64,000 bases of DNA, taken from the IMG/VR virus record IMGVR_UViG_3300031227_000028, positions 1-64,000 of that record, one strand, 5' to 3'. The notes under the pieces were generated by a model. That model had not been told where the DNA came from. It did no database searches and saw nothing but the letters and a program-made list of their open reading frames with translations. The stretch comes from a virus. The translations under genes were made by a program, and so were the position numbers. Positions 26,352-49,606 of this stretch are shown in pieces. Every line of letters begins with the position of its first letter. The first letter of the stretch is position 1.

Positions 26352-27620
26352 ATGAAAATAATAGCAACAATAATGGGACAAAATTGCGAAAAAACATTAT
26401 CATTATGTTTAAAATCAGTTAAAGATTTCGATGGAATAGTTTATTTAGATGGTGGTAGTACTGATGATAGTAAATTAATAGCATTAGATTATGATTTAAC
26501 AATAATTAATAATAAATTTGATAAAAGTAATCCAAATATGATAAGTATTCAAAGAAATTATTATCTTAATTATCTTAAAAAAACATATAAAGAAGAATTA
26601 GAAGACGTTTTTATTTTAGTTCTTGATGCAGATGAATTTGTTTCAGAAGGAGCTTATGAAATATTAAAAAATGATATAAAAAAATTAAAAAGCTATACTG
26701 AAGATGGTCAAGGTTTAATGTCAAATATCATAAGTCCAAAAATGCGACATCTTATATATAATTTATCTTATGAAGATGCAACTAGAGAAACACATTTTGC
26801 ACCTAATAGATTATTTAACTTAAAATTTGCTGATAAATATCCAAAAGGAGAACATGGGATTCTTAATAATTCTGGTACTAGTTATAAATATAGTGGAATT
26901 ACTATATGGCATTTAGGTTATTTAGGAGGACCATGGGGAATTAAAAAAAGATATGACCAACAAATACTTAGAAACACTGGTCACGCAAAACAATATTTAA
27001 AAGATTGGAATAAAGCTCATTTATTAGGACATTATCCAATTAAAAAAGTTAATGTTTTAGATTTACCAAAAATATTATTAGAAAATTTTAGTCTTGATAA
27101 AGACGAAATATATTTTGAAGGTAGAGGAATTGAAAGCAAACATTTTATTGATGCTATAGATTGGAAAGAATTTTTTAAATGTAAAACAGCATATGAAATT
27201 GGTTGCGGAAGAGGTCCAAGAGTTTATGCATTAAATAATATTGGTGTTAAAACTTATGGTTGTGATATTAATAAATGGGCTTGTGAGCATAAATTTCATG
27301 ATAATATTGAACAAATGGATATTACTAAAATAAATTCTTGGAAAAATAAATATGATTTAATAATTGCATATGATGTATTGGAACATATTGAAGAAAACGA
27401 TTTATGGAGAGTAATTGATTATATGAAGTTTGGAACAAGAAAATATATTTTAATATCTGTACCAGTAATTGGTGACCTAAATTTAGAAGCTGACCCTACT
27501 CATAAAATTAAACAAACAAAAGATTGGTGGATTAAAAAGTTTACAGATAGAGGATTTAAATTAATTGAAACACCACAACATTTTTTATATAGAAATCAAT
27601 TAATGATATTTGAGGTTTAA
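26352..27620 (+). CDS. GT2 glycosyltransferase fused to a class I SAM methyltransferase
   Basis: N-terminal DGGSTD and LDADE; C-terminal EIGCGRG and YDVLEH. Confidence 0.85.
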   Translation: MKIIATIMGQNCEKTLSLCLKSVKDFDGIVYLDGGSTDDSKLIALDYDLTIINNKFDKSNPNMISIQRNYYLNYLKKTYKEELEDVFILVLDADEFVSEGAYEILKNDIKKLKSYTEDGQGLMSNIISPKMRHLIYNLSYEDATRETHFAPNRLFNLKFADKYPKGEHGILNNSGTSYKYSGITIWHLGYLGGPWGIKKRYDQQILRNTGHAKQYLKDWNKAHLLGHYPIKKVNVLDLPKILLENFSLDKDEIYFEGRGIESKHFIDAIDWKEFFKCKTAYEIGCGRGPRVYALNNIGVKTYGCDINKWACEHKFHDNIEQMDITKINSWKNKYDLIIAYDVLEHIEENDLWRVIDYMKFGTRKYILISVPVIGDLNLEADPTHKIKQTKDWWIKKFTDRGFKLIETPQHFLYRNQLMIFEV

Positions 27621-30994: not shown

Positions 30995-33127
30995 ATGAAA
31001 TTTAACTTAAGCCCTAGCAGTATGAACGTGTATTTTGAATCACAGTTAATGTACTATTTTCAAAAAGTAATTAAAGCACAACTAAGCGATTGGGTGCCAC
31101 AATGTTATGGTGCATTAGGAAATTGCTTACATTCAACTTTAGAAGAAGTTGATAAACTAAATAAAGACCAATTAGAAAGTCTATTCTGGGAGAAATACTA
31201 TGGTTCAGCAGCTGCTAAATCAGTTGGAATTAGAGGAACATATCCTGACCCATATAAATATTCTGAAGCAGTAAGATATGGTAAAGAAATATTTGAATTA
31301 AAATATGATATAATATCTTGTGAAGAAATAATTACTATTCCTATTTATGTTAATAATGAGCATACTATTTATTTAAAAGGTATTATTGATGTTCAAGCAA
31401 AATTAAAAAAAGATGGAAGTTATGTAATCGTTGACCATAAATCAAGTACTAGTATAGATAAAGGAGATAATTTCAAACGTCAAGGGTTATTTTATTCAAT
31501 GTTAATTTATAGAGTAAAAGGAATTCTACCAACGCAAGTTATTTTTGAATATGAAAAAATTAAAAAAACTAAATCATTTTCGTTTACAATTAAAGAATTA
31601 GATGATTTTTATGATTTATGTATTTCTACTATTAATGATATAATAGGTAAAGGAACAGATATAAGACAGTTTGAAATTGGTGAAATTAATAGTATTTTTA
31701 ATGGTCATAAAACTTTATGTGAACAAGTAAAAGAAAGTAGAAAAAATAAATTAAATTTTGGTATAGCTATATATGGTAATACATCAATACTTGTAGGAGA
31801 TATAACTGATATTTTAAAAAATAAATTAGATAAATTAATGTCATATGAAAAAGAGAATGCAGAATTTATAAAACAAAATAGTGATTGGGATGGGATAGTT
31901 CATTTATATAATAAATATAAAAATACATTTCCTACAGGATATATTCCTTTAGTTAAAAAAATATTAAAACATTATTCTGAATATATGAAAAAAGATTATA
32001 GATTAGAAATGAAAGATATGAGAAAACAAACTAAAAAAATTACATATTGTGAAAAACTAGAAGGTATTAAATTTAGAAGTTATCAAGAAGAATCTAGTAT
32101 TGCATTCTTTAAAGCCCAATATGGAATTATTAAATTAAAAACAGGGTTAGGAAAAACAATAGCTGCTGGTGAAATAATTAGAAAAGCTGGTTTAGTTACT
32201 TTATGGGTTATTGATAGAAAATTATTAGTTGAACAAACAGCTAAAACTTATCAAGAATTATTTAATGAAGAAATAGGAACTATTACTGAAGGTAAAATTG
32301 ATATTAAAAATATTACAATTTGTACTTATCAAACGTTAAATAGAAGATTTAAAGAATTAGCTGAATATTTAAAAACAGTTGGATTTTTAGTTGTAGATGA
32401 ATGTCATAAAGCTAGTGCAATGAGTATAAAAAATATTGCTGAACGATGTACAAATACTAAATATAGATTAGGACTTTCAGCTACTCCTGATTTGAAAAAT
32501 GAATGGCCTGAAGTAAAAGGTATATTAGGAGATATATGTTATCAATTAGATAAAGATGACCCACGTAATAAAGAATTTTTAGCTGAAGCTGATATAAATT
32601 TTATATCATTAGATGATAGAAAGTTTGCTGATAGTGGTGATTATCGAGAATCATATAATAGTTATATTGTTCATAATGATATAAGAAATAATTGTATAAA
32701 AAAATTAGTTGATAAACATAAAAACGAAAATATATTAATTGTTACAAAATTAATTGAACATGCAAAAATATTAAGTAAATTACTTAATTGTGCAATTATA
32801 ATTGGTGAAACATCTACAGAAGAAAGAAATAGAATTACTGAAGAATATGCAAAAGAAAAACCTTTTATTTGTGTAGGTAGTGTTCAAATAATTTCTGAAG
32901 GTTGGGATGTACCAACATTATCTGTTTTAATTCAAGCCAGTGCAATGTCAAGTAATATTAAAACAATACAAGGATTAGGTCGTCCTTTAAGAAAGAATAA
33001 CAATAAAGATAAAGCAATATATTATGATTTTTTAGATAAATATAATAAATACACAAATGATGCATCAAAAAATAGAATAAAAGCTCTTAAATATGAAGGA
33101 AATATATTAAAAGTAATAAATGGATAA
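30995..33127 (+). CDS. PD-(D/E)XK (RecB/Cas4-like) nuclease fused to an SF2 (UvsW/XPB-like) helicase
   Basis: N-terminal LSPSS, GNCLH, GIID...IVDHKS; C-terminal TGLGKT, DECH, SAT, EGWDVP, QGLGRPLR. Confidence 0.85.
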   Translation: MKFNLSPSSMNVYFESQLMYYFQKVIKAQLSDWVPQCYGALGNCLHSTLEEVDKLNKDQLESLFWEKYYGSAAAKSVGIRGTYPDPYKYSEAVRYGKEIFELKYDIISCEEIITIPIYVNNEHTIYLKGIIDVQAKLKKDGSYVIVDHKSSTSIDKGDNFKRQGLFYSMLIYRVKGILPTQVIFEYEKIKKTKSFSFTIKELDDFYDLCISTINDIIGKGTDIRQFEIGEINSIFNGHKTLCEQVKESRKNKLNFGIAIYGNTSILVGDITDILKNKLDKLMSYEKENAEFIKQNSDWDGIVHLYNKYKNTFPTGYIPLVKKILKHYSEYMKKDYRLEMKDMRKQTKKITYCEKLEGIKFRSYQEESSIAFFKAQYGIIKLKTGLGKTIAAGEIIRKAGLVTLWVIDRKLLVEQTAKTYQELFNEEIGTITEGKIDIKNITICTYQTLNRRFKELAEYLKTVGFLVVDECHKASAMSIKNIAERCTNTKYRLGLSATPDLKNEWPEVKGILGDICYQLDKDDPRNKEFLAEADINFISLDDRKFADSGDYRESYNSYIVHNDIRNNCIKKLVDKHKNENILIVTKLIEHAKILSKLLNCAIIIGETSTEERNRITEEYAKEKPFICVGSVQIISEGWDVPTLSVLIQASAMSSNIKTIQGLGRPLRKNNNKDKAIYYDFLDKYNKYTNDASKNRIKALKYEGNILKVING

Positions 33128-33202: not shown

Positions 33203-33907
33203 ATGAAAATAAAAAAACAAATTATTAGAGATTTTTTAAAAGAAAGTGCATTATCTGGTGATAGTTCACTTACTGAAGTAAAATTAGATTTCAATGAACA
33301 AGCAATGTGCTTAACTGCAATAACTGGTGGTAATGCTGTAATGGTAAAAGCTCAATTAATTTCTGGTGCATTTGAAGAATATGAAGCAATTGGAAAAATT
33401 GGAATAATTAATTATTCTGAATTGACAAAAATTATTGATGCATTAAATGATAATATTGAAATTAATAAAGAAGGAAATTTATTAGTATTTAAAGGTGGGC
33501 GAAAAATTGAAGTACCATTAGCTGATGAATCATTAATTAAAGATATTTCAAAAATTCCTAGTTTAGAATATGATTATACATTTGCTTTGAATAAATCAGT
33601 ATTTGACGCTATTAATAAAAATATTGTATTCTCAATGAATAAAAATGATAGTAAAACTATTCAATTTACTGGTGAAAATAAAATATTAAATATTAAATAT
33701 GGTACTAAATATAAATTTGAAGATAGTATTGCAGTTAATGAAATTAATGCTAATAAAATTGATGTTAAATTTGGAGAGCCTTTATTAAATGCTATTACAA
33801 ATTTAAGTGGTGATTTAACAGTTCAAATGAAAAGCGAATTTCCAATAACTATTATGAAAAAAACTGAAATGTATGCAATTAAGATTATTGTAGCACCAAA
33901 AGTTTAA
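33203..33907 (+). CDS. pcn: DNA sliding clamp (PCNA-like)
   Basis: 234 aa with a two-domain beta pattern, ends IIVAPKV like archaeal PCNA, adjacent to RFC. Confidence 0.85.
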   Translation: MKIKKQIIRDFLKESALSGDSSLTEVKLDFNEQAMCLTAITGGNAVMVKAQLISGAFEEYEAIGKIGIINYSELTKIIDALNDNIEINKEGNLLVFKGGRKIEVPLADESLIKDISKIPSLEYDYTFALNKSVFDAINKNIVFSMNKNDSKTIQFTGENKILNIKYGTKYKFEDSIAVNEINANKIDVKFGEPLLNAITNLSGDLTVQMKSEFPITIMKKTEMYAIKIIVAPKV

Positions 33908-33955: not shown

Positions 33956-34882
33956 ATGAATATTGACGATTTAAAAAACATTGCATGGATGATTAAATAT
34001 AGACCAAAAACATTAGATAATGTTGTTGGAAAAGAAGCTAAACTATTGAAAAAATATGTTGATAGTAATAATTTACAACATTTTTTACTATCTTCTAGAA
34101 CACCAGGTACAGGAAAAACAACTTGTGCAAAAGCTATTATTAATGATACTGGAGCAGATTACATTGAAATAAATAGTAGTGATGAAAGAGGAATAGATGT
34201 TATTAGAGATAAAATTAAATTATTTGTTAGTACGATGAGTTCTAAACCTGGTTTAAAAAAAATTGTATTTTTAGATGAAATGGATTCTATGACTAAAACA
34301 GCTCAAGATGCACTTCGTAATATGATGGAGAAATTTATGACTAATGCTATCTTTATTCTAACTTGTAATTATATTGAAAAGGTTATTGAACCAATCAAAA
34401 ATCGTTGTGAAGTTATAGTTTTTGATAGTCCTGATAAAGCAGAGATTAGAAAATATTTATTGAATATCATAGATGCTGAAAGCGTTAAATATACTAGTGA
34501 TGGATTAAATAAATTAATTGATATGAATTATCCAAGTATAAGAGAATCTGTTAATACTTTACAAAAGTTTAAAACTATGGATATTGAATTGAATCCTATT
34601 AATTTAAAAAAAAATAATGAGAAATTTGATATTTTATGGACAGATATTAAAAGTGGTAAGGTTTTAAATGTTAGAAAAGAAATCTGTGAAAATAATTATA
34701 ACCCTGAATTATTATTAAAACATTTTTGGGCAAAAACATATACAGATGAAAAATTAACTATAAAACAAAAAATTAAATTAGTATCTGTATTAGCAGATGT
34801 TGATTATAAAATGAGTATTGGTGCATCAAAAAATATTCAAATAGATAATATGTTATTTAAAATAGTAGGTGCTTTAATATAA
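33956..34882 (+). CDS. rfcS: Replication factor C small subunit / clamp loader ATPase
   Basis: W..KYRP, PGTGKTT, NSSDERGIDVIR, LDEMD, AQDALR, CNY, NRC. Confidence 0.92.
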   Translation: MNIDDLKNIAWMIKYRPKTLDNVVGKEAKLLKKYVDSNNLQHFLLSSRTPGTGKTTCAKAIINDTGADYIEINSSDERGIDVIRDKIKLFVSTMSSKPGLKKIVFLDEMDSMTKTAQDALRNMMEKFMTNAIFILTCNYIEKVIEPIKNRCEVIVFDSPDKAEIRKYLLNIIDAESVKYTSDGLNKLIDMNYPSIRESVNTLQKFKTMDIELNPINLKKNNEKFDILWTDIKSGKVLNVRKEICENNYNPELLLKHFWAKTYTDEKLTIKQKIKLVSVLADVDYKMSIGASKNIQIDNMLFKIVGALI

Positions 34883-34887: not shown

Positions 34888-35382
34888 ATGGATTTATTCA
34901 AAACTTTAAATAAAATATATACTGCAAGAGATACTGATTGGGTTAAAGATATTGATAGTAATGTGTCAAATGTACCTATTAATATTATTTTATCATATAA
35001 TATTAAACTTAGTAATGTAGTAGCTTTTTTAGATAAATATACATTTAGATTAGATGTTAAGAATTTTTGTATATTAGCTTGGGCAATTATACACCCTAAA
35101 TATAATTCAATGCCTTTTAGTAAAAAAATAAAAGCTAATGAAAAAGAAAATAATAAATATCAATTTTTATTAGATAAAATACAAACTAGAATGGAAATAT
35201 CAAACAATGATTGGGTTGATTCTAAGAATTATTATATTGAAGACATTGAAAGAAGAATAACAGATTATTTAACTTTATTTGGTTGTACTAAAAAAGAATG
35301 GAAATCAATTGGAATTGATTTTGAAGAATCAAAAAAAATTAATATTGTAGATATAAAAAAAGGATTAGATAAATGGTTTTAA
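34888..35382 (+). CDS. Probable second clamp-loader subunit (gp62-like) with a C-terminal PIP-like motif
   Basis: Follows RFC, helical, ends KKGLDKWF. Confidence 0.55.
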   Translation: MDLFKTLNKIYTARDTDWVKDIDSNVSNVPINIILSYNIKLSNVVAFLDKYTFRLDVKNFCILAWAIIHPKYNSMPFSKKIKANEKENNKYQFLLDKIQTRMEISNNDWVDSKNYYIEDIERRITDYLTLFGCTKKEWKSIGIDFEESKKINIVDIKKGLDKWF

Positions 35383-35483
35383 TTAACAAAACATTTATAT
35401 ATTATATATGTAATAAATAATTATATTGATAGGAGACTGTTACTCCTAATCAAATAGAACAAAAAAAATACGGAGATATAAAA

Positions 35484-36134
35484 ATGATAAATGAAATAAT
35501 AATAACTTACAAATTTTTTGGTAAGAGAGGCTTATTTGTATTCACAGGTATAGCAATAATCTTAGCAAATATACAAGTTTTGAAAACAGTACAATTATTT
35601 GGAATGGTTGCAACATTAGGTAATGTTATATATGGATGTTCTTTTTTGATAACAGATATATTATCTGAAAATCATGGGAAGAAAGATGCTAAGACAGCTG
35701 TTATAATAGGATTGTCTGCAGCAATAATATCAACTGTTATAATGTATATATGTACTTTATTCGTTCCACATTCAAGTGATTTCGCTAGTGGGGCTTTATC
35801 AACAATTTTTAGTGTTATGCCAAGAATAATGATTGCATCTTTAATAGCATATACAATATCTAACTTTAATGATGTACATATATTCCATAAAATAAAAGCT
35901 AAAACAGGAGATAAACATCTTTGGATTAGAAATATTGGTTCAACATTTTCAAGTCAATTATTAGATACAGTAATTTTTAGTGTAATAGCTTTCTGGGGAA
36001 TGTTTAGTAGAGATATATTTATTCAAATAATGTTAACTACATATATTATGAAAATTGTAACAGCAGCTTTAGATACACCTTTCCTTTATCTTGCTAAATG
36101 GATGAAGAAAAATGGTCATGTGAGTGAGGAATAA
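35484..36134 (+). CDS. yhhQ: Queuosine-precursor (preQ0/preQ1) transporter, YhhQ/VUT family
   Basis: Multi-TM with ANIQVLK, FLITDILSE.HG, RIMIASLIAY, LWIRNIGST..SQLLDT, DTPFLY. Confidence 0.9.
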   Translation: MINEIIITYKFFGKRGLFVFTGIAIILANIQVLKTVQLFGMVATLGNVIYGCSFLITDILSENHGKKDAKTAVIIGLSAAIISTVIMYICTLFVPHSSDFASGALSTIFSVMPRIMIASLIAYTISNFNDVHIFHKIKAKTGDKHLWIRNIGSTFSSQLLDTVIFSVIAFWGMFSRDIFIQIMLTTYIMKIVTAALDTPFLYLAKWMKKNGHVSEE

Positions 36135-36135
36135 A

Positions 36136-37287
36136 ATGGATAGAAATTTTTTTGAAGAGAATAAATTAGTATATTTGCCAGCAACCCTTCCATCTGCTGA
36201 GTTATGTATAAATAATGATGAACCAACTGCAAAACAACCTCACTTTTGGAATAAAGAAACATCAATATGGTACTATCCAAATTTATTAATTAGTGCATAT
36301 CATGCAGATAAAATTGAAGATATTAGAAAATTAATGGGAATAGATAAAGATGTAAAAATTCTTTATGATAGTGGAGGTTACCAAATGGTAACCTTAGGAG
36401 GAAATATTAATCCTAAAGATTTAATAGAATTACAATTAAAAAATTCTAATGCTGGCCTTATATTAGATAATCCTCCTTTTAAAATAGGATTAGGAAATTC
36501 ACAGTTTGGTGAATCAATGAATGAAGATGAAATATCAATATGTCTTAATAAAACAAAAGAGAATGCTAAAATTGCAATGGCTAATAATATAGGACCAAAT
36601 AAAATTAGATTATATGGTGTAGTGCAAGGAGAATCATGGGAACAAATTAATAGATGGTATGATTCAATGCATGAATTAGAAGAAGAATATGGAAAATTTG
36701 ATGCCTGGGCAATGTCACCAAAACCATCAACAATAGCATTATATGGAATTTTATTATTAGAAAGAAAAATTAAAACCCCAATACATTTTTTACAGGCTAC
36801 AAGTAGAGAAGCAATATCCACTACCGCATATATTAGAAAATTATCAAAAAATTTGATAACTATTGATAGTTCAAATTTTTCATCTGGTACAAGATATGGA
36901 AGAATAATAAATTATGAGCATTTAGGTATATTTGATATAGGCGAAGGAAAAAGAGAAAAAAATAAAAAAGGTTGGTTTTGTGATTGTCCTATTTGTAGAG
37001 AAAGAAAAATTGATATTGAAAATTTATCAACAACAGATTTAAAATATATAAATATTCATAATTTATATCAAATAGTTAAAATTGTAAAAGTTGCAGATTG
37101 GTTAGTTGATTATAGTGAAGTAATGTTTTTTAATTGGATTAAGAAATTTAAATCATCATGCACTGGTGCAATTAAAATGTTACAATTTTATGATAAATAT
37201 GGATTAGAAAGAACTAAATTAAATTACTCAGATATATTCACAGCAAATGATAATATAGTAAATCAAAAAGGTTTATTTGATTTTTAA
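36136..37287 (+). CDS. Guanine transglycosylase (TGT/DpdA superfamily), paralog 1
   Basis: DSGGYQ, LILD, LYGVVQG, ITIDSS, Zn site CDCPIC...HN; no PUA domain; ends QKGLFDF. Start placed at MDRNFF. Confidence 0.85.
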   Translation: MDRNFFEENKLVYLPATLPSAELCINNDEPTAKQPHFWNKETSIWYYPNLLISAYHADKIEDIRKLMGIDKDVKILYDSGGYQMVTLGGNINPKDLIELQLKNSNAGLILDNPPFKIGLGNSQFGESMNEDEISICLNKTKENAKIAMANNIGPNKIRLYGVVQGESWEQINRWYDSMHELEEEYGKFDAWAMSPKPSTIALYGILLLERKIKTPIHFLQATSREAISTTAYIRKLSKNLITIDSSNFSSGTRYGRIINYEHLGIFDIGEGKREKNKKGWFCDCPICRERKIDIENLSTTDLKYINIHNLYQIVKIVKVADWLVDYSEVMFFNWIKKFKSSCTGAIKMLQFYDKYGLERTKLNYSDIFTANDNIVNQKGLFDF

Positions 37288-37312
37288 ATTATATAGATTA
37301 GGAGAAAATAAA

Positions 37313-38458
37313 ATGAAAAGAACATTTTTTGAAAATAATAAATTAGTTTTTATCCCTGCAATTTTACCTAATAAAGATCTTTTTGGTAAAGAAACAGATA
37401 AATATTCTTTTTTTTCTGATAAGTCTTTATATTTTTATCCTAATGTTTTAATTAGTGCATATCACGGGAAACATTTAGATATTAGGAAAGAATTAGAATG
37501 TAATGATAATGTTATGATTTTAGGTGATTCAGGTGGATTTCAAGCAGTAACTTTAGGTGGCGATATAAACGCTAAAGAAGTTATTAAATGGCAAATGAAT
37601 AATTGTAATGCTGGTTTAATACTTGATAAGCCTCCATATAAATTTGGTGGAACAGCGCAATTTGCAGGTACACCATCTAAAGAATTTTTTAATGAATGTT
37701 TAGAAAAAACAAAACAAAATGCTTTAATAGCTCTTGAACATAATAAAGGCGAAAAGAAAATTAGATTATATGGAGTAATTCAAGGCGAAACATGGGAACA
37801 AATGAAACAATGGTATGAAACAATATCATCAATTCAAACAAATGAGAAAAAATTTGATGCATGGGCATTATCACCAAAACCATCAAATGATGTTTTTAAA
37901 ATTGCAATGCTTGGTATTTTATGTTTAGAAAAAAAAATAGATACACCATTGCATATACTTCAAATTTCAAATCGTCCTGGAATAATAGTTGCTGCTTTAA
38001 TAAGATTTTGTATTCAACAAACAGTAACTATAGATAGTTCTTCTCCTTCAAAAGCATCACGTTTTGGGGAAATATATAATCCATATACATTTTTAGCAGA
38101 AATTAAAACCGGGCAAAGAAGACCAAAAGAAAAAATGAATGGATGGATGTGTGATTGCCCAATATGTCAAGCAACTAATATATCTTTTAATGATGTTGAA
38201 AATAAAAATTATGAAAATATTTTGGATTTACATAATTTATATCAAATAGTGCGTTTTGTAAAATATATGGATTGGGTAGTACAAGATAAAGAAATATTAA
38301 TGAAAATGGTAAAAACTGTTTCAATTAATGCTTATAATGCAATTGAAATGATTTATTATTATAAAGAATATGGATTAGAAAGAACTAAATTAAAATATCC
38401 AAATGTATTTGAATCAAATAATGATGCATCAAATCAAAAAGGATTATTTGAATTTTAA
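37313..38458 (+). CDS. Guanine transglycosylase (TGT/DpdA superfamily), paralog 2
   Basis: DSGGFQ, LILD, LYGVIQG, VTIDSS, CDCPIC...HN; ends QKGLFEF. Start placed at MKRTFF. Confidence 0.85.
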   Translation: MKRTFFENNKLVFIPAILPNKDLFGKETDKYSFFSDKSLYFYPNVLISAYHGKHLDIRKELECNDNVMILGDSGGFQAVTLGGDINAKEVIKWQMNNCNAGLILDKPPYKFGGTAQFAGTPSKEFFNECLEKTKQNALIALEHNKGEKKIRLYGVIQGETWEQMKQWYETISSIQTNEKKFDAWALSPKPSNDVFKIAMLGILCLEKKIDTPLHILQISNRPGIIVAALIRFCIQQTVTIDSSSPSKASRFGEIYNPYTFLAEIKTGQRRPKEKMNGWMCDCPICQATNISFNDVENKNYENILDLHNLYQIVRFVKYMDWVVQDKEILMKMVKTVSINAYNAIEMIYYYKEYGLERTKLKYPNVFESNNDASNQKGLFEF

Positions 38459-38467
38459 GGTAATAAA

Positions 38468-38941
38468 ATGGCTGTGAAACAAGAAACATATGATAAATGG
38501 ATAGCTAAATATGGTCCAAATGCAAGAATTGGTTTAGATATTATAGGTAAATGTAATTTATATCCTAAAGAATTAGGGAGAATATTTTTACCTACAATAA
38601 CAGAGGCAATTAAAAAAAATAATTGTTATATAATTGATGATAGGAATTGGGTATTTTTTAATTATAATAAAAAATTAAATAAAATGAAACTTCAATATAT
38701 ATTATCAATGGACCATAAAGGAACTATTTTATTAAAACATCTTGAATCAATTTGTGCAGAAAGACATATTCCTATAATTTATTTAACTGTTGTTGCAGGA
38801 ATGCCAGCAGTTGATTGGTATTATAAAAAAGGTTTTATAAAAGTTAAAGAAAGACATTCAAGGAAGGGAACTTTATTGTTTGATGTTGAGAAGAAGTTTT
38901 TTAAAATAGGTTTAGAGAAATGGTATAAAAATGAAATATAA
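38468..38941 (+). CDS. GNAT-family acetyltransferase
   Basis: KGTILLKHLE...IYLTV....AVDWYYKKGF matches GNAT motifs A/B; near-terminal IGLEKWY. Confidence 0.7.
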   Translation: MAVKQETYDKWIAKYGPNARIGLDIIGKCNLYPKELGRIFLPTITEAIKKNNCYIIDDRNWVFFNYNKKLNKMKLQYILSMDHKGTILLKHLESICAERHIPIIYLTVVAGMPAVDWYYKKGFIKVKERHSRKGTLLFDVEKKFFKIGLEKWYKNEI

Positions 38942-41048
38942 ATCGCAAATAGACAAAATGATTAGTAATTGTTTGGTATATGATATAGAAACAAGCGCTA
39001 GTTATCCTGATGGTAAACCAATAAACATTAAAACAGATTTTAAAAATTATATTAAATATGCAATAGTTAAATGGGTAGGTTTTTATTCTTATAAATATAA
39101 TAAATATTATGAATATAATGCTATTATACAACTTGATGAAATTGACCAAATGTTTAAAGACCATAGACATATTATTGGTATAAATAATATAGAATTTGAT
39201 ACTCCTATTTGTATGAATAATAATATTATAAAACAATATCAACATAAACAAATAGATTTACAGGTTATTCTTGGAAATAATTTATTACAAGGGCATAAAA
39301 ATAGAGCAACATTTATGGGTGTAAATTTAAAAAAAATTATTATTAATGATAAAGAATATGGACCTAATACTTTAATGAGTTTAGCTTATCATTTTAATTT
39401 ACCAGTATTAAAAGGAGATATAGATTATAATATATTTTTTAAAAATCATTGGGATGAAAAAGAAACTAAAAATATTATTAAATATTTACATGGTGATATA
39501 GAAGTAACTAAATTATTATTTGATAAAGTAATTAATTTCTGGACTATATTTACAGATTGGTTATATATTGAAGATGTAGAAAAATGGGCTTGGTTAAAAA
39601 GTAGTATTGCCAGTTTAACTTATCTTGCAGCATGTAAAGTTAAAAATGTTTTACCAACATATGGAAGTATAGGAGAAACTGAAGATATGGGTGGAAGAGC
39701 AGTAATGCCTATTAAAGATGAAATATATAATGTTCATTATTTAGATGAAGCATCTAAATATCCACATATATTTGCTCAGTTTAATTTATTTAGTGAAGTA
39801 GATATATCAAGTTATACTAATGAACAAATTGAAAAAGCAATTGCAAATAATATAATATGGCATGGCAATGATAAATTTAAAGTTAAAGGATATTATTATA
39901 TAAAAGAACAATCTATATTAGCTAAAGATGTATTAAATAAATTAAAAACAAGAATAGCTGTTAAGAAAATACTTAAAAAAGATAAAAATGGTAAATATAT
40001 TAATATTGATGAACATAATTATATGAAAATAGAAATTGACCCATTGTTAAAAGATTTTATATTTGATAAACAATTATCTGATTATATTATAAATTCATTA
40101 AATGGATTACAATATGCTATTAAAATCTTTTTAAATTCATTATATGGTGCAGTTAGAAGTGGAATATTTGAACAAATACATACTCCTAATGCTGGATATG
40201 ATTGTTGTTGGATTGGTCAACAAATTCATGAAAAAGTTGAAAAAGAATTTAAAGACCGTGGATATGACACAGTAGGTGGATTTACAGATTCCTGGTTTAT
40301 AGAAAAAAAAGAAGGAGATACTAGAGAATTAATGATTAAATATTGTAAAACTATAATGAACAAATTAAAAGAATCATTTATTTTTCCTGCAGATACACAT
40401 ATAATTGATTATGAATGTTTTATGGATTATTTATTATATAATAAAGATAAGAAAAATGAATATAAAAAAAATAATTATTGTTTCATATCTAATGGTAAAG
40501 TTAAAGTTGTAGGATTTCCTATAAAAAAAAGTAATTCATCTAAACTAGGAAATATAATACTTAATAAATATATTATTCTAGAAGGATTAAAAAGAAATAA
40601 TTTAAAATTTAAAAAGAAATATTTTGATAATATAATTGCAGAAGAATTAAAAAATGATATTACTTTATCTGCTGTTGTTTTTAAATGTAATCCATCAATA
40701 ACTTATAAAAAAATAAATCAATTACAAGCACAAGTAAGTCGAGCATATTTTGATGGTTTAGGTGGAGAAATAGCTATAATTAAAAATAAAAAATTTGGTA
40801 AAGTAGGAAAAACAAATAAATATTGTACTATAAAAGAAGCAATAGAAAATAATATACAAGTTGAAGATTTAGATTTAACTAAATTATTTAATGAACTTAA
40901 TCCATTTATTAGAAAAGAAAAAGATATGGATTTATTTAGTTTTGTTGGTGGTGATGATAATTTATTTGATGAAAAAGTTGATGAAAAAGTTGATGAAAAA
41001 GTTGATGAAAAAGTTGAAACAAAAACGGGGCTAGATAAATGGTTTTGA
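38931..41048 (+). CDS. polB: Family B DNA polymerase
   Basis: Exo motifs YDIET, N..FD and YLHGD; Pol motif A DEASKYP, B KIFLNSLYG, C GFTDSW; ends KTGLDKWF. Confidence 0.9.
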   Translation: MKYKSQIDKMISNCLVYDIETSASYPDGKPINIKTDFKNYIKYAIVKWVGFYSYKYNKYYEYNAIIQLDEIDQMFKDHRHIIGINNIEFDTPICMNNNIIKQYQHKQIDLQVILGNNLLQGHKNRATFMGVNLKKIIINDKEYGPNTLMSLAYHFNLPVLKGDIDYNIFFKNHWDEKETKNIIKYLHGDIEVTKLLFDKVINFWTIFTDWLYIEDVEKWAWLKSSIASLTYLAACKVKNVLPTYGSIGETEDMGGRAVMPIKDEIYNVHYLDEASKYPHIFAQFNLFSEVDISSYTNEQIEKAIANNIIWHGNDKFKVKGYYYIKEQSILAKDVLNKLKTRIAVKKILKKDKNGKYINIDEHNYMKIEIDPLLKDFIFDKQLSDYIINSLNGLQYAIKIFLNSLYGAVRSGIFEQIHTPNAGYDCCWIGQQIHEKVEKEFKDRGYDTVGGFTDSWFIEKKEGDTRELMIKYCKTIMNKLKESFIFPADTHIIDYECFMDYLLYNKDKKNEYKKNNYCFISNGKVKVVGFPIKKSNSSKLGNIILNKYIILEGLKRNNLKFKKKYFDNIIAEELKNDITLSAVVFKCNPSITYKKINQLQAQVSRAYFDGLGGEIAIIKNKKFGKVGKTNKYCTIKEAIENNIQVEDLDLTKLFNELNPFIRKEKDMDLFSFVGGDDNLFDEKVDEKVDEKVDEKVETKTGLDKWF
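40968..41015 (+). repeat. 12-bp tandem repeat x4 encoding a (DEKV)4 linker before the PolB PIP motif
   Basis: GATGAAAAAGTT four times. Confidence 0.9.
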
Positions 41049-45749: not shown

Positions 45750-46496
45750 AAACTATAGAAGAATTACAAAAACGTTTAGAAGGTGCCTTTAAACATAGTA
45801 ATTTTTTTGATTCTTTACATGAAGTTAATGAAGTAAAAAAAGTTATTGGTGCAAAGGAATTAACTAAATTTTTAAAAAAGAAAATTAATATTATAAAAAA
45901 AGAAAAAAGAGAATATAATTTAAAAGTCAAAAATATTAGAATTAAATATGGTTCATTTAACGAATATATATATGAAGAAGCTTTACAATATATAACTCAT
46001 AGTTATAAAGTAGGAGAAATTGTTGTTGTTGAATATTGTGATTCATATAAAGCCCTTAAAATACATAAAATAACAAAAAAAGGTTATGATTTATGGGATG
46101 GAAATAAATTGGCCACAATAATGAAAATACCAGAATCTAGTATATTAGGTTATGGACATAATTTAAATAAAATAATTAAAGAAAATGACAAAAAGAAGGT
46201 CAAAAATTAATTCAACTTTTTTTCTTGATATAATTGGTGAAGATAAAGTTGATAAAAAGAAATATAAAAAAACAGATAAATATAAACCCAACGATTATTT
46301 TATGTAAATAATATTATTTAATACAAACATTTATATATTAGTTGTTATATTATTATGAATATGTATAAGACAACAAGTTTAACCAATATGTGTATGAGTA
46401 ATTTATTACTTGCGTCATTTTAGTTATAACTATGTTGTTAAGCTTATTCTTTTTATTTATCTGTTTAACAACAGGTTGAAATATATTAAAATTTAT

Positions 46497-46572
46497 AGAA
46501 GTGTAGGCTAGTCAGGTCAAAGTCACGCGGCTCATGACCGTGAGAACGTTGGTTCAAATCCGACCACTTCTA
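46497..46572 (+). tRNA. tRNA-Met(CAT), initiator-like A1:U72
   Basis: AGAAGTG/CACTTCT acceptor, CGCGG-CT CAT GA-CCGTG. Confidence 0.9.
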
Positions 46573-46682
46573 TTTTGTTTAAATGTACATTTAAATAAAC
46601 GTGATAAAAATAATTACCTACCGTTTAGAAACGAAAGGAGGAGTGATTCCCTCGTTGCAAGGAATTATTGTTTATTTTTATT

Positions 46683-46753
46683 GCCGATGTAGTATAATGG
46701 TATTATACCTGGCTGTTGACCAGATGATAGGGGTTCAATTCCCTTCGTCGGCG
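46683..46753 (+). tRNA. tRNA-Asn(GTT)
   Basis: Cloverleaf with loop CT GTT GA. Confidence 0.9.
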
Positions 46754-46759
46754 TTTTAT

Positions 46760-46880
46760 ACGTGTGTGGCTGATTGGTAAAAGCGCTGGACTTAGAATGA
46801 AAATTCGTCTACAAGATGTTTTTACATAAGTTATCCAGTTTCCTAAGTGGATGTTGTGTGTTCAATTCATACCACACGTA
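46760..46880 (+). tRNA. tRNA-Leu(TAG) with a BHB intron at 46797-46832
   Basis: CTGGA-CT TAG A[intron]A-TCCAG; CTTA/TAAG helix, 3-nt bulges GAA and TTA; long variable arm. Confidence 0.9.
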
Positions 46881-46887
46881 TTTTTAT

Positions 46888-46971
46888 GCTACGATGGCTC
46901 AATATGGCACAGCAACAGATTGCTAATCTGTGAGACAATAACTCTTTTCGGTTCAAATCCGAATCGTAGCG
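46888..46971 (+). tRNA. tRNA-Ser(GCT)
   Basis: Cloverleaf with long variable arm. Confidence 0.9.
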
Positions 46972-47069
46972 TTGAAGGAGAAGCTAAAAATGGTCTTATT
47001 GGAAGCAAGAGGCAATGCTTGACGAAGAGAAACTTATAACTGTAGCGGGTTATACATTCATTATTTTTT

Positions 47070-47150
47070 GCTAACAAAGCGAATGGTAAGCGTGCCGTCT
47101 TGAAAACGGTTGGTCCTTGCGGCTCGTCAGTTCGAATCTGGCTGTTAGCG
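47070..47150 (+). tRNA. tRNA-Ser(TGA)
   Basis: Cloverleaf with long variable arm; short, atypical D arm. Confidence 0.85.
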
Positions 47151-47179
47151 TTATTAAAATAAAAAAAATATAAATTATT

Positions 47180-47253
47180 GGGCGAATAGTTAAATCTGGT
47201 ATAACGTCCCGCTTGCAACGGGGAGGCTTCGGGTTCAAATCCCGATTTGTCCA
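47180..47253 (+). tRNA. tRNA-Ala(TGC)
   Basis: Cloverleaf with G3:U70. Confidence 0.92.
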
Positions 47254-47262
47254 TATATTAAA

Positions 47263-47463
47263 ATGAGTTATGATAAAAATCATACAAAAGACGATTGTGA
47301 TAAATGTCTTGAAAGGGTTGGAAAAGAAAATTTAACACCTATTAAGTTTTTATATCTTGATAGGAATGATTTAATGCATCCTGATTATTATCATAACGCA
47401 ACTAAAGCACAAAAAGATTACAAATTATATTATGTTTGTAAAAATTGTTTAAAAAATTATTAA
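47263..47463 (+). CDS. Small Zn-finger protein inside the tRNA array
   Basis: CDKC...CKNC. Confidence 0.6.
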   Translation: MSYDKNHTKDDCDKCLERVGKENLTPIKFLYLDRNDLMHPDYYHNATKAQKDYKLYYVCKNCLKNY

Positions 47464-47464
47464 T

Positions 47465-47538
47465 GCACGTGTGGCACAGTGGTCTACTGCGTCTGCCTTG
47501 TAAGCAGAATTACCCCAGTTCAAATCTGGGTACGTGCT
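47465..47538 (+). tRNA. tRNA-Thr(TGT)
   Basis: Cloverleaf. Confidence 0.92.
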
Positions 47539-47544
47539 TTTTAT

Positions 47545-47616
47545 GCATCATTGGGCAAGTGGTAAGTCGTCTGTCTGCAAAACAGAAGAACCCCGGTTCA
47601 ATTCCGGGATGATGCT
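47545..47616 (+). tRNA. tRNA-Cys(GCA)
   Basis: Cloverleaf with U73. Confidence 0.92.
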
Positions 47617-47617
47617 T

Positions 47618-47902
47618 ATGGTAAAATATAAAAAAAAATATGGGCATGAATATCCAACATTAACAGTTCCAATGAAATCACTTCAAGAAGAAAATTTATT
47701 TATTAATCCTTATTGGAATGAATGGAATACTCAAAAAGATAGTTTAAGAGTTATATGTGATAATAAAAAAATAGTTAAACAAAATAAAAATAGAATACAT
47801 AAATTTTCAGTTTGGGATATTAGAGAAAAAGGAATACAAGAAAAAAATAAAAAAAAATTAATTATAAGAAAGAAAAGAAAATTATTAAATAATATTATTT
47901 AA
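47618..47902 (+). CDS. Basic hypothetical protein inside the tRNA array
   Basis: True start likely MVKYKK at 47618, because the longer track call overlaps tRNA-Cys. Confidence 0.55.
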   Translation: MVKYKKKYGHEYPTLTVPMKSLQEENLFINPYWNEWNTQKDSLRVICDNKKIVKQNKNRIHKFSVWDIREKGIQEKNKKKLIIRKKRKLLNNII

Positions 47903-48174
47903 TACAAACATTTATATATTAGATATGGTTTTATATAATTATAATAAATAATCTTAATATTAATTTATTAAGAAATATTAAATAACTAGATAATTATAGG
48001 TGTTATCCCAATCATATTAAAATGAACATACAAGAATGGAGACAGGACGGGGAAAGAGGCTTTGACATAGTGTTTAAGCCTATCTATCGTTAGTCCTTCC
48101 ATGGTTCATATCAATTTCTAAATAAATAAAAAAGAACATTGGCCATGTGCCATGGAATTCTAAAAAAAATATAC

Positions 48175-48245
48175 AGTCGTATAGTTTAATGGTAAAATTA
48201 TCCGTTTACACCGGATGGCTATGAGTTCAATTCTCATTGCGACTA
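48175..48245 (+). tRNA. tRNA-Val(TAC)
   Basis: Cloverleaf. Confidence 0.9.
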
Positions 48246-48259
48246 TAATAAACCTTTAT

Positions 48260-48332
48260 GCTCTAATGGTCTAGTGGACAATGACATCTGGCTTTCGACC
48301 AGAAGACCTGAGTTCAATTCTCGGTTGGGGTA
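48260..48332 (+). tRNA. tRNA-Glu(TTC)
   Basis: Cloverleaf with a GU-rich acceptor. Confidence 0.88.
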
Positions 48333-48338
48333 CTTTAC

Positions 48339-48413
48339 TGGGTGGTGGTCTAGTTTGGCTAAGACTCTCGACTTGGACTCGAGAAACCGGGGGTTCAAAT
48401 CCTCCCCATCCAA
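48339..48413 (+). tRNA. tRNA-Pro(TGG)
   Basis: Cloverleaf. Confidence 0.9.
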
Positions 48414-48423
48414 TATTTATTTT

Positions 48424-48495
48424 GCCTGTGTAGTGTAATGGCTATCACATGAGACTGTCTATCTCAAAATTTGGGTTCAATTCCCAGCATGGGCG
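48424..48495 (+). tRNA. tRNA-Asp(GTC)
   Basis: Cloverleaf with G73. Confidence 0.9.
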
Positions 48496-48499
48496 TTAT

Positions 48500-48574
48500 G
48501 GAAGTATAGCTTAATCTGGTTAAAGCACCGGTCTTATATACCGTTGAATCTGGGTTCAAATCCCAGTATTTCCA
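48500..48574 (+). tRNA. tRNA-Ile(TAT)
   Basis: CCGGT-CT TAT AT-ACCGT, A73. Confidence 0.88.
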
Positions 48575-48579
48575 TTTAT

Positions 48580-48652
48580 GGACGTATGGCTAAGTGGTTA
48601 AGGCAGTCGACTGATATTCGAAAGAACACCGGTTCAAATCCGGTTATGTCCA
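48580..48652 (+). tRNA. tRNA-Ile(GAT)
   Basis: Cloverleaf. Confidence 0.9.
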
Positions 48653-48658
48653 TTTTAT

Positions 48659-48768
48659 GCACCCATAGTCTAAACTGGAAGGGCTCTTGGCTTCGATACA
48701 ATTGTATGGCTAGTAAGACGCTTTTTTGAAGATACCAAGGTATCCGGGTTCAAATCCCGGTGGGTGCT
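48659..48768 (+). tRNA. tRNA-Arg(TCG) with a BHB intron at 48697-48733
   Basis: CTTGG-CT TCG A[intron]A-CCAAG; CTTC/GAAG helix, bulges GAT and ATA. Confidence 0.88.
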
Positions 48769-48773
48769 TTTAT

Positions 48774-48847
48774 GTGAATGTAGCAAAACGGTTTAATGCA
48801 CTCGACTTTTAATCGAGAGACTGAGGGTTCAAATCCCTTCATTCACA
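48774..48847 (+). tRNA. tRNA-Lys(TTT)
   Basis: Cloverleaf. Confidence 0.92.
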
Positions 48848-48854
48848 TTTTTAT

Positions 48855-48927
48855 AGGGTAGTGGTCTAGTGGACAATGACATCTGACTTTGGATCAGAAA
48901 ACGGCAGTTCAATTCTGCCCTACCCCA
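48855..48927 (+). tRNA. tRNA-Gln(TTG)
   Basis: Cloverleaf with an A1-C72 mismatch. Confidence 0.9.
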
Positions 48928-48932
48928 TAATT

Positions 48933-49004
48933 GCTTGCATAGCATAACGGTTAATGCTTCAGGTTGTGGTCCTGATAATCTGGGTTCAATTCCCAGTGTA
49001 AGCT
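48933..49004 (+). tRNA. tRNA-His(GTG)
   Basis: Cloverleaf; no encoded G-1. Confidence 0.88.
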
Positions 49005-49011
49005 TTTTAAT

Positions 49012-49084: not shown

Positions 49085-49094
49085 TCATATTAAA

Positions 49095-49601: not shown

Positions 49602-49606
49602 TTTAT

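What the first reader, a model, noticed from the sequence alone, without database searches (positions are those of the whole stretch)
36136..38458. Tandem TGT paralogs share a remodelled base-binding pocket
Seen: both copies keep the two catalytic Asp motifs (DSGG(Y/F)Q and IDSS) and the Zn site. The loop that reads AxGG in bacterial and archaeal TGTs is FDAWA(M/L)SPKPS in both, and HxxG becomes H(F/I)LQ. Established: this loop determines preQ0/preQ1/queuine selectivity. Inference: the enzymes insert a non-standard base. Two intact paralogs suggest either two target-sequence specificities or a heterodimer.
Basis: partly seen in the sequence, partly recalled or inferred. Interest (0 to 1): 0.72.

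Follow-up and report, generated by a model that had tools for sequence, protein, structure and literature searches.

The report
Twin preQ1-type DNA transglycosylases in phage
An uncultured 83-kb salt-lake virus carries two diverged copies of an uncharacterised guanine-swapping enzyme next to a precursor importer and its DNA polymerase; relatives pair the same enzyme with a complete preQ1 pathway, so it most likely puts preQ1 into the viral DNA.

Summary
Genes A (36136-37287) and B (37313-38458) are 47% identical TGT-fold proteins. Both keep the catalytic Asp residues and the CxCxxC...H zinc site. Both replace the Gly-Gly loop with WA(M/L)SPKPS and HxxG with H(F/I)LQ.

The remodelled pocket is not private to this pair. 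It marks a large, wholly uncharacterised viral clade that fits none of DpdA1-4, bacterial DpdA, bTGT or arcTGT. In all 8 distinct related loci of this loop type that carry synthesis genes, QueF (preQ0 to preQ1) lies at or one gene from the enzyme's 5' end, with QueC where the flank allows. Zinc-bearing relatives with Gly-type loops lack QueF in 6 of 7 loci.

Here, and in a second lineage (L137), the pathway is replaced by a YhhQ-type precursor transporter. Both copies, a GNAT, PolB and a small ORF end in PIP-like tails, and a PCNA-fold clamp is encoded nearby, which argues for DNA rather than tRNA as the target.

The most likely base is therefore preQ1, which is already known in phage DNA, and not necessarily a new one. 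The two-copy state is unique among the 167 distinct contigs examined. Whether the copies form a heterodimer or have different specificities could not be tested. Earlier scan notes (e1-2806618) describe a preQ1 plus acetyltransferase operon on other DNA.

The parts
33203..33907 (+). PCNA-fold sliding clamp (234 aa)
   Evidence: No Pfam family above cut-off. AF2 model on 3 sequences, pLDDT 71. Foldseek best hits are yeast, human and archaeal PCNA, E about 4e-14, TM 0.68-0.76.
33956..34882 (+). RFC-type clamp-loader subunit
   Evidence: Pfam AAA 2e-20, DNA_pol3_delta2 1e-10, Rep_fac_C 8e-7.
34888..35382 (+). Conserved 164-aa ORF ending in the PIP-like tail KKGLDKWF
   Evidence: Orthologues in L013 and L048 (35-39% identity) end in VGLDAWF and VVLNKWF. 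No Pfam hit.
35484..36134 (+). YhhQ/COG1738 queuosine-precursor transporter
   Evidence: TIGR00697 E 1e-61 (208 bits, cut-off 51) and Pfam Vut_1 6e-50. The same YhhQ-TGT-PolB order occurs in L137.
36136..37287 (+). TGT-family transglycosylase copy A, the more diverged copy
   Evidence: It deviates at 6 of 55 columns conserved in 27 single-copy relatives (F76Y, W93L, A115S, G119E, F126I, L186M in copy-B numbering), none of them catalytic. PIP-like tail QKGLFDF.
36697..36729 (+). Copy A remodelled beta6-alpha6 loop FDAWAMSPKPS
   Evidence: alignments.
37313..38458 (+). TGT-family transglycosylase copy B, the conservative copy
   Evidence: It deviates at 1 of 55 conserved columns. PIP-like tail QKGLFEF.
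37853..37885 (+). Copy B remodelled loop FDAWALSPKPS
   Evidence: alignments.
38468..38941 (+). Divergent GNAT-like protein (157 aa) with the PIP-like tail KIGLEKWY
   Evidence: Pfam Acetyltransf_10 E 2e-4, below cut-off. Orthologues directly after the TGT gene in L014 (41% identity) and L048 (52%, Pfam 5e-6). A different GNAT sits before the TGT gene in L013.
38931..41048 (+). Family B DNA polymerase ending in KTGLDKWF
   Evidence: 28-30% identical to the PolB genes that follow the TGT gene in L009, L010, L011, L013 and L014. The L013 orthologue hits Pfam DNA_pol_B at 2e-21. The window protein itself has no Pfam hit.

Best explanation
A and B are two active members of an uncharacterised, zinc-bearing, virus-specific branch of the TGT superfamily. 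They work like DpdA: after replication they exchange guanine in the virus's own DNA for a 7-deazaguanine base by the double-displacement mechanism of TGT (acid/base Asp in DSGG, nucleophile Asp in IDSS). The remodelled pocket (S-P in place of G-G, Lys-Pro-Ser after it, Gln in place of the Gly of HxxG) is this clade's adaptation to preQ1 rather than preQ0. Relatives make preQ1 themselves with FolE, QueD, QueE, QueC and QueF. This virus, and independently the L137 virus, has swapped that pathway for a YhhQ-type importer and lives on salvaged or host-made precursor. C-terminal PIP-like tails hold both enzymes, the neighbouring GNAT and PolB on the virus's PCNA-like clamp, so modification happens at or just behind the fork. 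The two copies are old (47% identity), both are intact, and A has drifted more. The most likely division of labour is different DNA sequence contexts, or different precursor preference, which would raise the fraction of G replaced. Shown here: fold, catalytic and zinc residues, loop change, gene neighbourhoods, tails, PCNA fold. Inferred: DNA as substrate, preQ1 as the base, clamp binding, the roles of the two copies.
For: TGT fold at Z about 25. Family profile against PDB sequences: arcTGT 4e-23, Salmonella DNA-guanine transglycosylase DpdA 3e-12, bTGTs 1e-8 to 1e-11. Invariant across 81 family members: D72, S73, G74, G75, D105, H214, D241. Conserved in at least 90%: C280, C282, C285, H307. 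All 8 distinct loci with the SPKPS/HxLQ type and synthesis genes (L009, L010, L011, L013, L014, L048, L142, L190/L191) have QueF at or one gene from the TGT gene's 5' end. Five of these QueF proteins carry the canonical ESK(S/A)LKLY and CPKT(G/N)QPD or CLVTKQPD motifs; three are divergent. Zinc-bearing relatives with other loops lack QueF in 6 of 7 loci (L012, L139, L140, L143, L146, L171; only L050 has it). Among about 150 zinc-less DpdA2-like loci only L041 has QueF. The virus itself has no QueC, FolE, QueD or QueF but has YhhQ. L137 shows the same YhhQ-TGT-PolB cassette in another subclade. YhhQ homologues of 63-65% identity lie on contigs of the same length as TGT homologues P0002 and P0032. 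The motif GL[DEF]x[WF][FY] or GLF[DE]F occurs in only 5 of 155 ORFs of the genome, always at the C-terminus, all in adjacent genes. The tails are conserved in relatives. A PCNA fold is encoded nearby. By the published loop rule, small residues at loop positions 5-6 mean preQ1/queuine and bulky ones mean preQ0 (PMC10164549); Ser at position 5 fits the preQ1 type.
Against: No member of this clade has been assayed. The QueF association is clade-wide and may reflect one evolutionary event, so it cannot separate the loop from other clade features. A Lys beside a pocket for the cationic aminomethyl group of preQ1 is not obviously favourable. Residue-level pocket geometry could not be inspected because no model coordinates were available, and the arcTGT and bTGT alignments differ by one register. 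This virus lacks QueF and its host is unknown, so preQ1 supply depends on an unverified transporter specificity; YhhQ family members carry preQ0, preQ1 or queuine. Clamp binding rests on motif and fold only. The Pfam TGT score is below the gathering cut-off (21-24 against 26.3 bits).
Confidence: 0.6

Rival explanations
1. The enzymes act on tRNA, not DNA. They would be viral tRNA-guanine transglycosylases that load salvaged preQ1 or queuine onto G34 of the virus's own GUN-anticodon tRNAs, or preQ0 onto G15 as arcTGT does.
For: The virus encodes 20 tRNAs, including Asn-GTT, Asp-GTC, His-GTG and Tyr-GTA. The zinc subdomain typical of tRNA TGTs is kept, whereas the phage DpdA1 and DpdA2 references lack CxCxxC. 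The closest solved sequence is arcTGT. The transporter is of the queuosine-precursor type.
Against: Scores against the tRNA enzyme models are far below cut-off: TIGR00430 30 against 307 bits and TIGR00432 22 against 350 bits. The proteins lack the C2/PUA tRNA-binding domains of arcTGT (381 aa against 582). In the window and in every related locus with the downstream flank the gene lies in the replication module just upstream of PolB (directly, or one to two genes away). Clamp-type PIP tails are shared with PolB. Salmonella DpdA also keeps the zinc site and acts on DNA (PMC10164549).
Confidence: 0.1
2. The pocket is built for a base other than plain preQ1. One option is a preQ1 derivative made by the adjacent GNAT (N-acyl-preQ1), inserted as the free base or formed on DNA. 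Another is preQ0 or CDG in this QueF-less virus.
For: A GNAT-like gene directly flanks the TGT gene in the window, L014, L048 and L013 and carries the same clamp tail. Methyl- and formyl-preQ1 are known precedents (PMC10516641). VH7D DpdA2 is promiscuous for preQ1, preQ0 and CDG. The loss of Gly-Gly and the gain of Lys and Gln have no counterpart in characterised preQ1 enzymes. No paper in the library links DpdA, preQ1 and an acetyltransferase.
Against: The GNAT is absent from L009, L010, L011, L137, L142 and L190, which have the same loop, so the loop does not depend on it. The window GNAT scores below the Pfam cut-off. The invariant partner of the loop is QueF, not the GNAT.
Confidence: 0.2
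3. A and B form an obligate heterodimer, as in eukaryotic QTRT1/QTRT2, rather than acting as two independent enzymes.
For: TGT enzymes work as dimers (PMC6884629). The genes are adjacent and probably co-transcribed, lying 25 bp apart. A has drifted at 6 conserved positions against 1 for B.
Against: Both copies keep all catalytic, pocket and zinc residues, unlike the inactive QTRT2. All other contigs examined carry a single copy, so the family works as a homo-oligomer or monomer. Nothing was tested directly.
Confidence: 0.15
4. One copy, probably A, is a redundant or decaying duplicate, or a recent import from a related virus, with no distinct role.
For: The best tree places A with L048/P0003 rather than with B (support 83/85). 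A is on the longer branch (0.61 against 0.44).
Against: The frame is open over 383 codons at 47% divergence, with every functional motif and the clamp tail intact. A sister relationship of A and B is not rejected (AU p = 0.15).
Confidence: 0.05

Closest known systems
DpdA2 of Vibrio phages nt-1 and VH7D (Hutinet 2019, PMC6884629; Cui 2023, PMC10516641)
   Same: Closest characterised viral relatives. The family profile hits them at E 2.6e-14 and 2.4e-13, and hhalign gives 96.8% probability over 210 columns. They share DSGG, the second Asp and the DSS nucleophile motif, and sit next to Que genes. VH7D DpdA2 inserts preQ1 into DNA and sits next to a 302-aa ORF whose sequence reads like a bimodular QueF (not scanned against Pfam).
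   Different: DpdA2 is 459-464 aa, has no CxCxxC zinc site, and has the loops AVSGAAIG or AAADTCIG with HMLG. Only the N-terminal 210-230 residues align. The proteins here are about 380 aa, bear zinc, and read SPKPS and HxLQ.
Archaeosine tRNA-guanine transglycosylase (P. horikoshii, PDB 1iq8)
   Same: Best solved-structure relative by sequence (E 4e-23) and fold (Z 25.6, rmsd 3.1 over 302 residues). It has the same catalytic Asp residues, CxCxxC...H site and HNL motif.
   Different: arcTGT has the loop PIGGVVPL with HLFG, C-terminal C2/PUA domains (582 aa), a tRNA G15 substrate and preQ0 specificity. The TIGR00432 score here is 22 against a cut-off of 350.
Bacterial DpdA (S. Montevideo, PDB 7ui4; PMC10164549)
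   Same: A DNA-guanine transglycosylase with the TGT fold, three active-site Asp residues and a zinc site. Profile E 3e-12.
   Different: bDpdA has the G206-G207-M-V-P-L loop of the preQ0 type, needs DpdB/ATP, and is part of a host restriction-modification system. No Pfam DpdA (PF23859) hit was listed for A or B at E <= 0.01.
Streptococcus phage Dp-1 and Halovirus HVTV-1 dPreQ1 systems
   Same: The same predicted chemistry, with FolE, QueD, QueE, QueC and QueF plus a transglycosylase giving dPreQ1 in DNA. The L048 QueF is 59% identical to Dp-1 QueF.
   Different: Their transglycosylases (DpdA1 and DpdA4) are not detected by this family's profile.
Virus-encoded YhhQ and DpdA-only viruses (HCTV-1/HCTV-16, HRTV-29, Salmonella phage 7-11; PMC8651126, PMC6884629)
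   Same: These are precedents for viral YhhQ and for viruses that carry only the transglycosylase and use host or imported precursor.
   Different: There YhhQ accompanies a full pathway or shows no correlation with any phage group. Here and in L137 it takes the exact place of the pathway, immediately upstream of the enzyme.

Membership tests
TGT superfamily (PF01702 / TIM-barrel transglycosylase) | TGT fold | tested here: met
   AF2 pLDDT 91.8. VIA Z 25-26, rmsd about 3.1 over 296-313 residues, to human, archaeal and Z. mobilis TGT.
TGT superfamily (PF01702 / TIM-barrel transglycosylase) | Sequence score above the curated cut-off | tested here: not met
   PF01702 scores 21.4 (A) and 24.1 (B) against 26.3 bits. 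TIGR00449 scores 21.6 and 39.6 against 47.6. The family profile does reach arcTGT at 4e-23.
TGT superfamily (PF01702 / TIM-barrel transglycosylase) | Acid/base Asp, base-recognition Asp, nucleophile Asp; Cys3His zinc site | tested here: met
   D72, D105, D241 and C280/C282/C285/H307 in B; D78, D111, D244 and C282/C284/C287/H308 in A. The three Asp are invariant, and the Cys and His conserved in at least 90%, across 81 relatives.
Bacterial tRNA-guanine(34) transglycosylase (TIGR00430) | Equivalog score; GGLAVGE loop | tested here: not met
   30 against 307 bits for B only; no TIGR00430 match was listed for A. The loop reads SPKPS.
Archaeosine TGT (TIGR00432) | Equivalog score; C-terminal C2/PUA domains | tested here: not met
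   22 against 350 bits for A only; no TIGR00432 match was listed for B. 381-383 aa against 582; no PUA hit.
DpdA1 (phage 9g type) | Detectable homology to 9g DpdA | tested here: inconclusive
   Profile hit E 8e-4 over 72 positions only. 9g DpdA is 317 aa without a zinc motif. No hit in Dp-1.
DpdA2 (nt-1 / VH7D type) | Full-length similarity and shared architecture | tested here: not met
   Only residues 43-257 align. DpdA2 lacks the zinc subdomain and has a different loop. The two are related but form a separate branch.
DpdA3 (phiST CGPG_00065 / CP220) | Homology to CGPG_00065 | tested here: not met
   hhalign 79.8% probability over 93 columns only; the protein is 259 aa. No profile hit in the phiST or CP220 records.
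DpdA4 (DUF6610, PF20314; HVTV-1) | PF20314 match or similarity to HVTV1_69 | tested here: not met
   No such Pfam hit at E <= 0.01. No profile hit in the HVTV-1 record.
DpdA in the functional sense (DNA-guanine transglycosylase of a 7-deazaguanine system) | Genetic linkage to 7-deazaguanine precursor supply | tested here: met
   QueD, QueE, FolE, QueC and QueF in relatives; YhhQ here and in L137.
DpdA in the functional sense (DNA-guanine transglycosylase of a 7-deazaguanine system) | Guanine exchange on DNA | not testable with these tools
   Support is indirect only: replication-module position, PIP-like tails, PCNA fold.

The most novel reading that the evidence does not exclude
The SPKPS/HxLQ clade is a fifth viral DpdA type that is physically coupled to the replisome through PCNA. 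In the subclade carrying the clamp-tailed GNAT, including this virus, the final DNA base would be an N-acylated preQ1 that has never been reported. The two paralogues would then give complementary sequence coverage, so that most or all G is replaced using only imported precursor.
Probability: 0.15. Interest if true: 0.8.

Novelty: new variant of a known kind. Interest (0 to 1): 0.6.

Why it matters
7-Deazaguanine DNA modification is a major viral counter-defence, and its enzymes are currently sorted into bDpdA and DpdA1-4. This locus exposes a large viral branch that falls outside those groups: 516 cluster representatives match at E <= 1e-30, and no isolate phage in the searched collection carries it. 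The branch gives a natural experiment on how the TGT pocket switches precursor, with Gly-Gly/HxxG and no QueF on one side and SPKPS/HxLQ with QueF on the other. It also suggests a mechanism not described for DpdA, namely tethering to the sliding clamp. It shows a pathway-for-transporter swap that happened at least twice. The only two-copy case found offers a direct test of whether DpdA paralogues split sequence motifs or substrates. All of this can be tested with standard E. coli que-mutant expression and LC-MS.

Tried and rejected
The contexts of most database homologues, including the P0002 and P0032 contigs that seem to carry YhhQ, could therefore not be read. Their linkage rests only on equal contig lengths.
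Neither clamp-tail binding nor A-B dimerisation was tested.
There is no independent read-level check of the tandem arrangement.
- The look-up of sequencing runs listed no RNA holder.
- Megablast of 30-42 kb against phage records gave no match.
- phmmer of copy B alone against PDB sequences gave nothing meaningful.
- PHROGs and PADLOC gave no hit.
- The Pfam TGT model did not find the DpdA genes in the 9g, nt-1 or CP220 records, so that route to reference sequences failed.
- The AU test of A and B as sisters was inconclusive (p 0.15).
- An ArcS-like role for one copy was considered and dropped, because both copies keep the transglycosylase Asp residues and no ArcS motif was seen.
- Host assignment failed. 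YhhQ's nearest named homologues span Deltaproteobacteria, Parcubacteria, Woesearchaeota, Spirochaetes and Bacilli. One relative is binned in an archaeal MAG and another in a Bacilli MAG.
- Model coordinates are not exposed, so pocket geometry and docking were not done.
Full report
**What is there.** The window is the first 64 kb of an 82,856-bp virus record with direct terminal repeats, rated complete, with about 25% G+C. On the + strand a replication module runs as follows:
- a PD-(D/E)XK-SF2 helicase (30995-33127);
- a 234-aa clamp (33203-33907);
- an RFC-like loader (33956-34882);
- a 164-aa ORF (34888-35382);
- a YhhQ/COG1738 transporter (35484-36134);
- TGT-like copy A (36136-37287);
- TGT-like copy B (37313-38458);
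- a GNAT-like ORF (38468-38941);
- PolB (38931-41048);
- further on, an ATP-dependent ligase.

Both TGT genes start at an ATG behind a GGAG-type ribosome-binding site.

**Observation check.** A and B are 47% identical (E 4e-122). An AlphaFold2 model of B built on 81 relatives is confident (pLDDT 91.8, pTM 0.91). It superposes on human, archaeal and bacterial TGTs at Z 25-26.

The family profile aligns best to P. horikoshii arcTGT (4e-23), then to Salmonella DpdA (3e-12), then to bTGTs. In the alignments to T. maritima TGT and bDpdA and to E. coli Tgt, S-P of SPKPS stands on the Gly-Gly of the beta6-alpha6 loop. K-P-S then occupies the three positions whose backbone and side chains contact the 7-substituent. 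The arcTGT alignment shifts this by one residue with a gap, so the exact register is uncertain. The Gln of HxLQ stands on the Gly of HxxG.

The published analysis of bDpdA assigns preQ0 versus preQ1/queuine discrimination to this loop. It reads GGhsbb for preQ0 enzymes and GGhsG/sG for preQ1 or queuine enzymes (PMC10164549).

**The remodelling is a clade trait.** A word-indexed search gave 107 relatives. An exhaustive profile search gave 2,336 cluster representatives at E <= 1e-3 and 516 at E <= 1e-30. Atlas neighbours are 91-95% viral.

I aligned 355 sampled sequences to the family HMM. They fall into three groups:
- (S/A)PKP(S/A/P) with HxLQ and a zinc site, 53 sequences;
- PKP-type loops with HxLG/A/L;
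- Gly-Gly or other loops with HxLG, many of them about 500 aa, zinc-less and DpdA2-like.

More distant zinc-bearing members still read (S/A)IGG(I/M)VP and H(I/F)(L/F)G, like arcTGT. SPKPS/HxLQ is thus a derived state shared by a coherent subfamily.

No isolate phage in 50,697 records has it; there are only 5 tblastn hits, all at 26% identity or less. PHROGs and PADLOC give nothing.

**Relation to DpdA1-4.**
- The family profile finds nt-1 and VH7D DpdA2 (E about 1e-13 to 1e-14; hhalign 96.8% over 210 columns). Those proteins are about 460 aa, lack the zinc motif and have different loops.
- 9g DpdA1 is hit only marginally (8e-4). Dp-1, HVTV-1 (DpdA4), CP220 and phiST (DpdA3) are not hit.
- phiST CGPG_00065 aligns over 93 columns at 79.8% probability.
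- Similarity to E. coli Tgt is about as strong as to DpdA2 (96.3%).
- Neither Pfam DpdA (PF23859) nor DUF6610 appeared in the scan.

I therefore do not file the pair under any named subfamily. It works like a DpdA but lies on its own branch.

**What the neighbours say about the base.** The virus has no QueC, FolE, QueD or QueF anywhere. Its closest single-copy relatives (43-52% identity; L013, L014, L048, L009) share the clamp, RFC, orf164 and PolB synteny. Between orf164 and the TGT gene they carry QueD, QueE, FolE, QueC and QueF.

I extended this to 176 loci, which represent 167 distinct contigs:
- Every SPKPS/HxLQ locus with synthesis genes has QueF at or one gene from the TGT gene's 5' end. 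These are L009, L010, L011, L013, L014, L048, L142 and the near-duplicate pair L190/L191, 8 distinct contigs in all.
- Five of these QueF proteins have the canonical NADPH-type motif and the catalytic Cys; three are divergent.
- Of seven zinc-bearing relatives with other loops, six lack QueF. L139, L140 and L012 stop at QueC. L143, L146 and L171 stop at QueE.
- Among about 150 DpdA2-like loci, only one has QueF.

A naive Fisher test on 9 of 9 against 1 of 7 loci gives about 9e-4. With L190 and L191 collapsed to one contig (8 of 8 against 1 of 7) the value is about 1e-3. The SPKPS/HxLQ group is essentially one clade, so this may be a single event and the p-value overstates the evidence.

The plain reading is that the pocket is the preQ1 version of this enzyme. 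preQ1 in viral DNA is already known from Dp-1, HVTV-1 and VH7D. 'Non-standard base' is therefore only partly right.

**The transporter swap.** In the window YhhQ (TIGR00697, 1e-61) sits exactly where relatives have QueF. L137, from a different subclade (the 430-aa type of P0018), has the same YhhQ-TGT-PolB order and no Que genes. YhhQ homologues of 63-65% identity lie on contigs with the same lengths as the TGT homologues P0002 and P0032. Viral YhhQ and DpdA-only viruses have precedents (PMC6884629, PMC8651126).

**DNA or tRNA?** The virus has 20 tRNA genes, including all four GUN species, so a tRNA role had to be considered. Four points argue against it:
- Scores against the tRNA enzyme models are an order of magnitude below cut-off.
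- There are no PUA/C2 domains.
- In the window and in every related locus with the downstream flank, the gene lies just upstream of PolB, directly or one to two genes away.
- Following a lead from earlier scan notes (e1-6110454, e1-6110438), I checked the C-termini. GL[DEF]x[WF][FY] or GLF[DE]F occurs in only five of the genome's 155 six-frame ORFs of 60 aa or more. It is always at the C-terminal end, and always in the adjacent genes orf164, A, B, GNAT and PolB.

Relatives keep Qxx(L/I)Fx(F/W) tails on the enzyme and xLxxW(F) tails on PolB. The 234-aa ORF folds as PCNA (pLDDT 71; Foldseek E 4e-14, TM about 0.7).

**The two copies.** Among the 167 distinct contigs with a family member, only this genome has two. 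Both fall in one well-supported 13-member clade. The best tree puts A with L048/P0003 (support 83/85) and leaves B unresolved. A sister relationship of A and B is not rejected (AU p 0.15).

Of 55 columns conserved in 27 single-copy relatives, B departs at one and A at six. A's changes include the stacking/gate residue after DSGG (Phe to Tyr) and Leu to Met inside the loop. None is catalytic.

So this is an old duplication or an import. Both genes have been maintained, and A is drifting. Different DNA motif preference is the reading I favour, by analogy with motif-specific DpdAs such as CAjan (two motifs) and iggy (GA) (abstracts). Different precursor preference or a heterodimer remain open.

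**GNAT.** A small, divergent GNAT-like gene follows the enzyme here and in L014 and L048 (41-52% identity). A different GNAT precedes the enzyme in L013. It is absent from six other loci with the same loop, so it is an optional add-on. Acylation of the preQ1 amine is an attractive but untested idea. It was also raised in scan notes e1-6110440 and, on other DNA, e1-2806618. I found no paper on it.

**Habitat and host.** The stretch occurs in salt-lake metagenomes from several studies. Three runs besides the likely source run hold 21-69% of its sampled words. The host is unknown.

**Verdict.** This is a new variant of a known kind: a DpdA-like enzyme of an unnamed branch, probably specific for preQ1, probably tethered to the clamp. 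In this virus it is uniquely duplicated and fed by a transporter.

Noticed in passing
window 34888-41048 (C-termini at 35359-35379, 37264-37284, 38435-38455, about 38906-38926, 41025-41045): Five adjacent genes (orf164, TGT A, TGT B, GNAT, PolB) are the only ORFs in the 83-kb genome with a C-terminal GL[DEF]x[WF][FY] or GLF[DE]F tail, which resembles a PIP box. Relatives keep similar tails.
   Followed up: partly
window 33203-33907: This 234-aa ORF has no Pfam family but folds as a PCNA-type sliding clamp (Foldseek E 4e-14). An RFC-like loader follows it.
   Followed up: yes
L137 5470-9229 (IMGVR_UViG_3300025736_000100): A second, independent YhhQ-TGT-PolB cassette without any Que genes, in a different subclade of the family.
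   Followed up: partly
L050 6523-8001; also P0047: The QueF next to a family member is 492 aa and holds an intein plus an HTH insert (Pfam Intein_splicing 2e-9). One 557-aa TGT homologue (P0047) also carries an intein domain.
   Followed up: no
L143, L146, L171: Zinc-bearing relatives with other loops (GWAIGSASV, GGIVY(G/A)(T/S)KGG) sit with FolE, QueD and QueE only, with no QueC or QueF. This suggests CDG-derived bases, as in DpdA3 phages, but made by a different enzyme branch.
   Followed up: no
window 46496-49841: ARAGORN finds an array of 20 tRNA genes, including Asn, Asp, His and Tyr (GUN anticodons) and two Ile and two Ser species.
   Followed up: no
window 26352-27620: A 422-aa ORF joins a family-2 glycosyltransferase domain to a class I SAM methyltransferase domain (Pfam, E about 1e-6).
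   Followed up: no
window 30995-33127: A 710-aa protein fuses an N-terminal PD-(D/E)XK nuclease domain to an XPB/ResIII-type SF2 helicase.
   Followed up: no
L190 6631-7323: A 230-aa CxxCxxCC-domain protein lies between QueC and QueF in one preQ1 cluster. L013 has two further unassigned ORFs (137 and 192 aa) inside its cluster.
   Followed up: no
whole record: The stretch 35484-38941 recurs in salt-lake metagenomes from several studies. The nearest relatives are binned in an 'uncultured archaeon' MAG and a 'Bacilli' MAG, so the host domain is unresolved despite the archaeo-eukaryotic-type replisome.
   Followed up: partly
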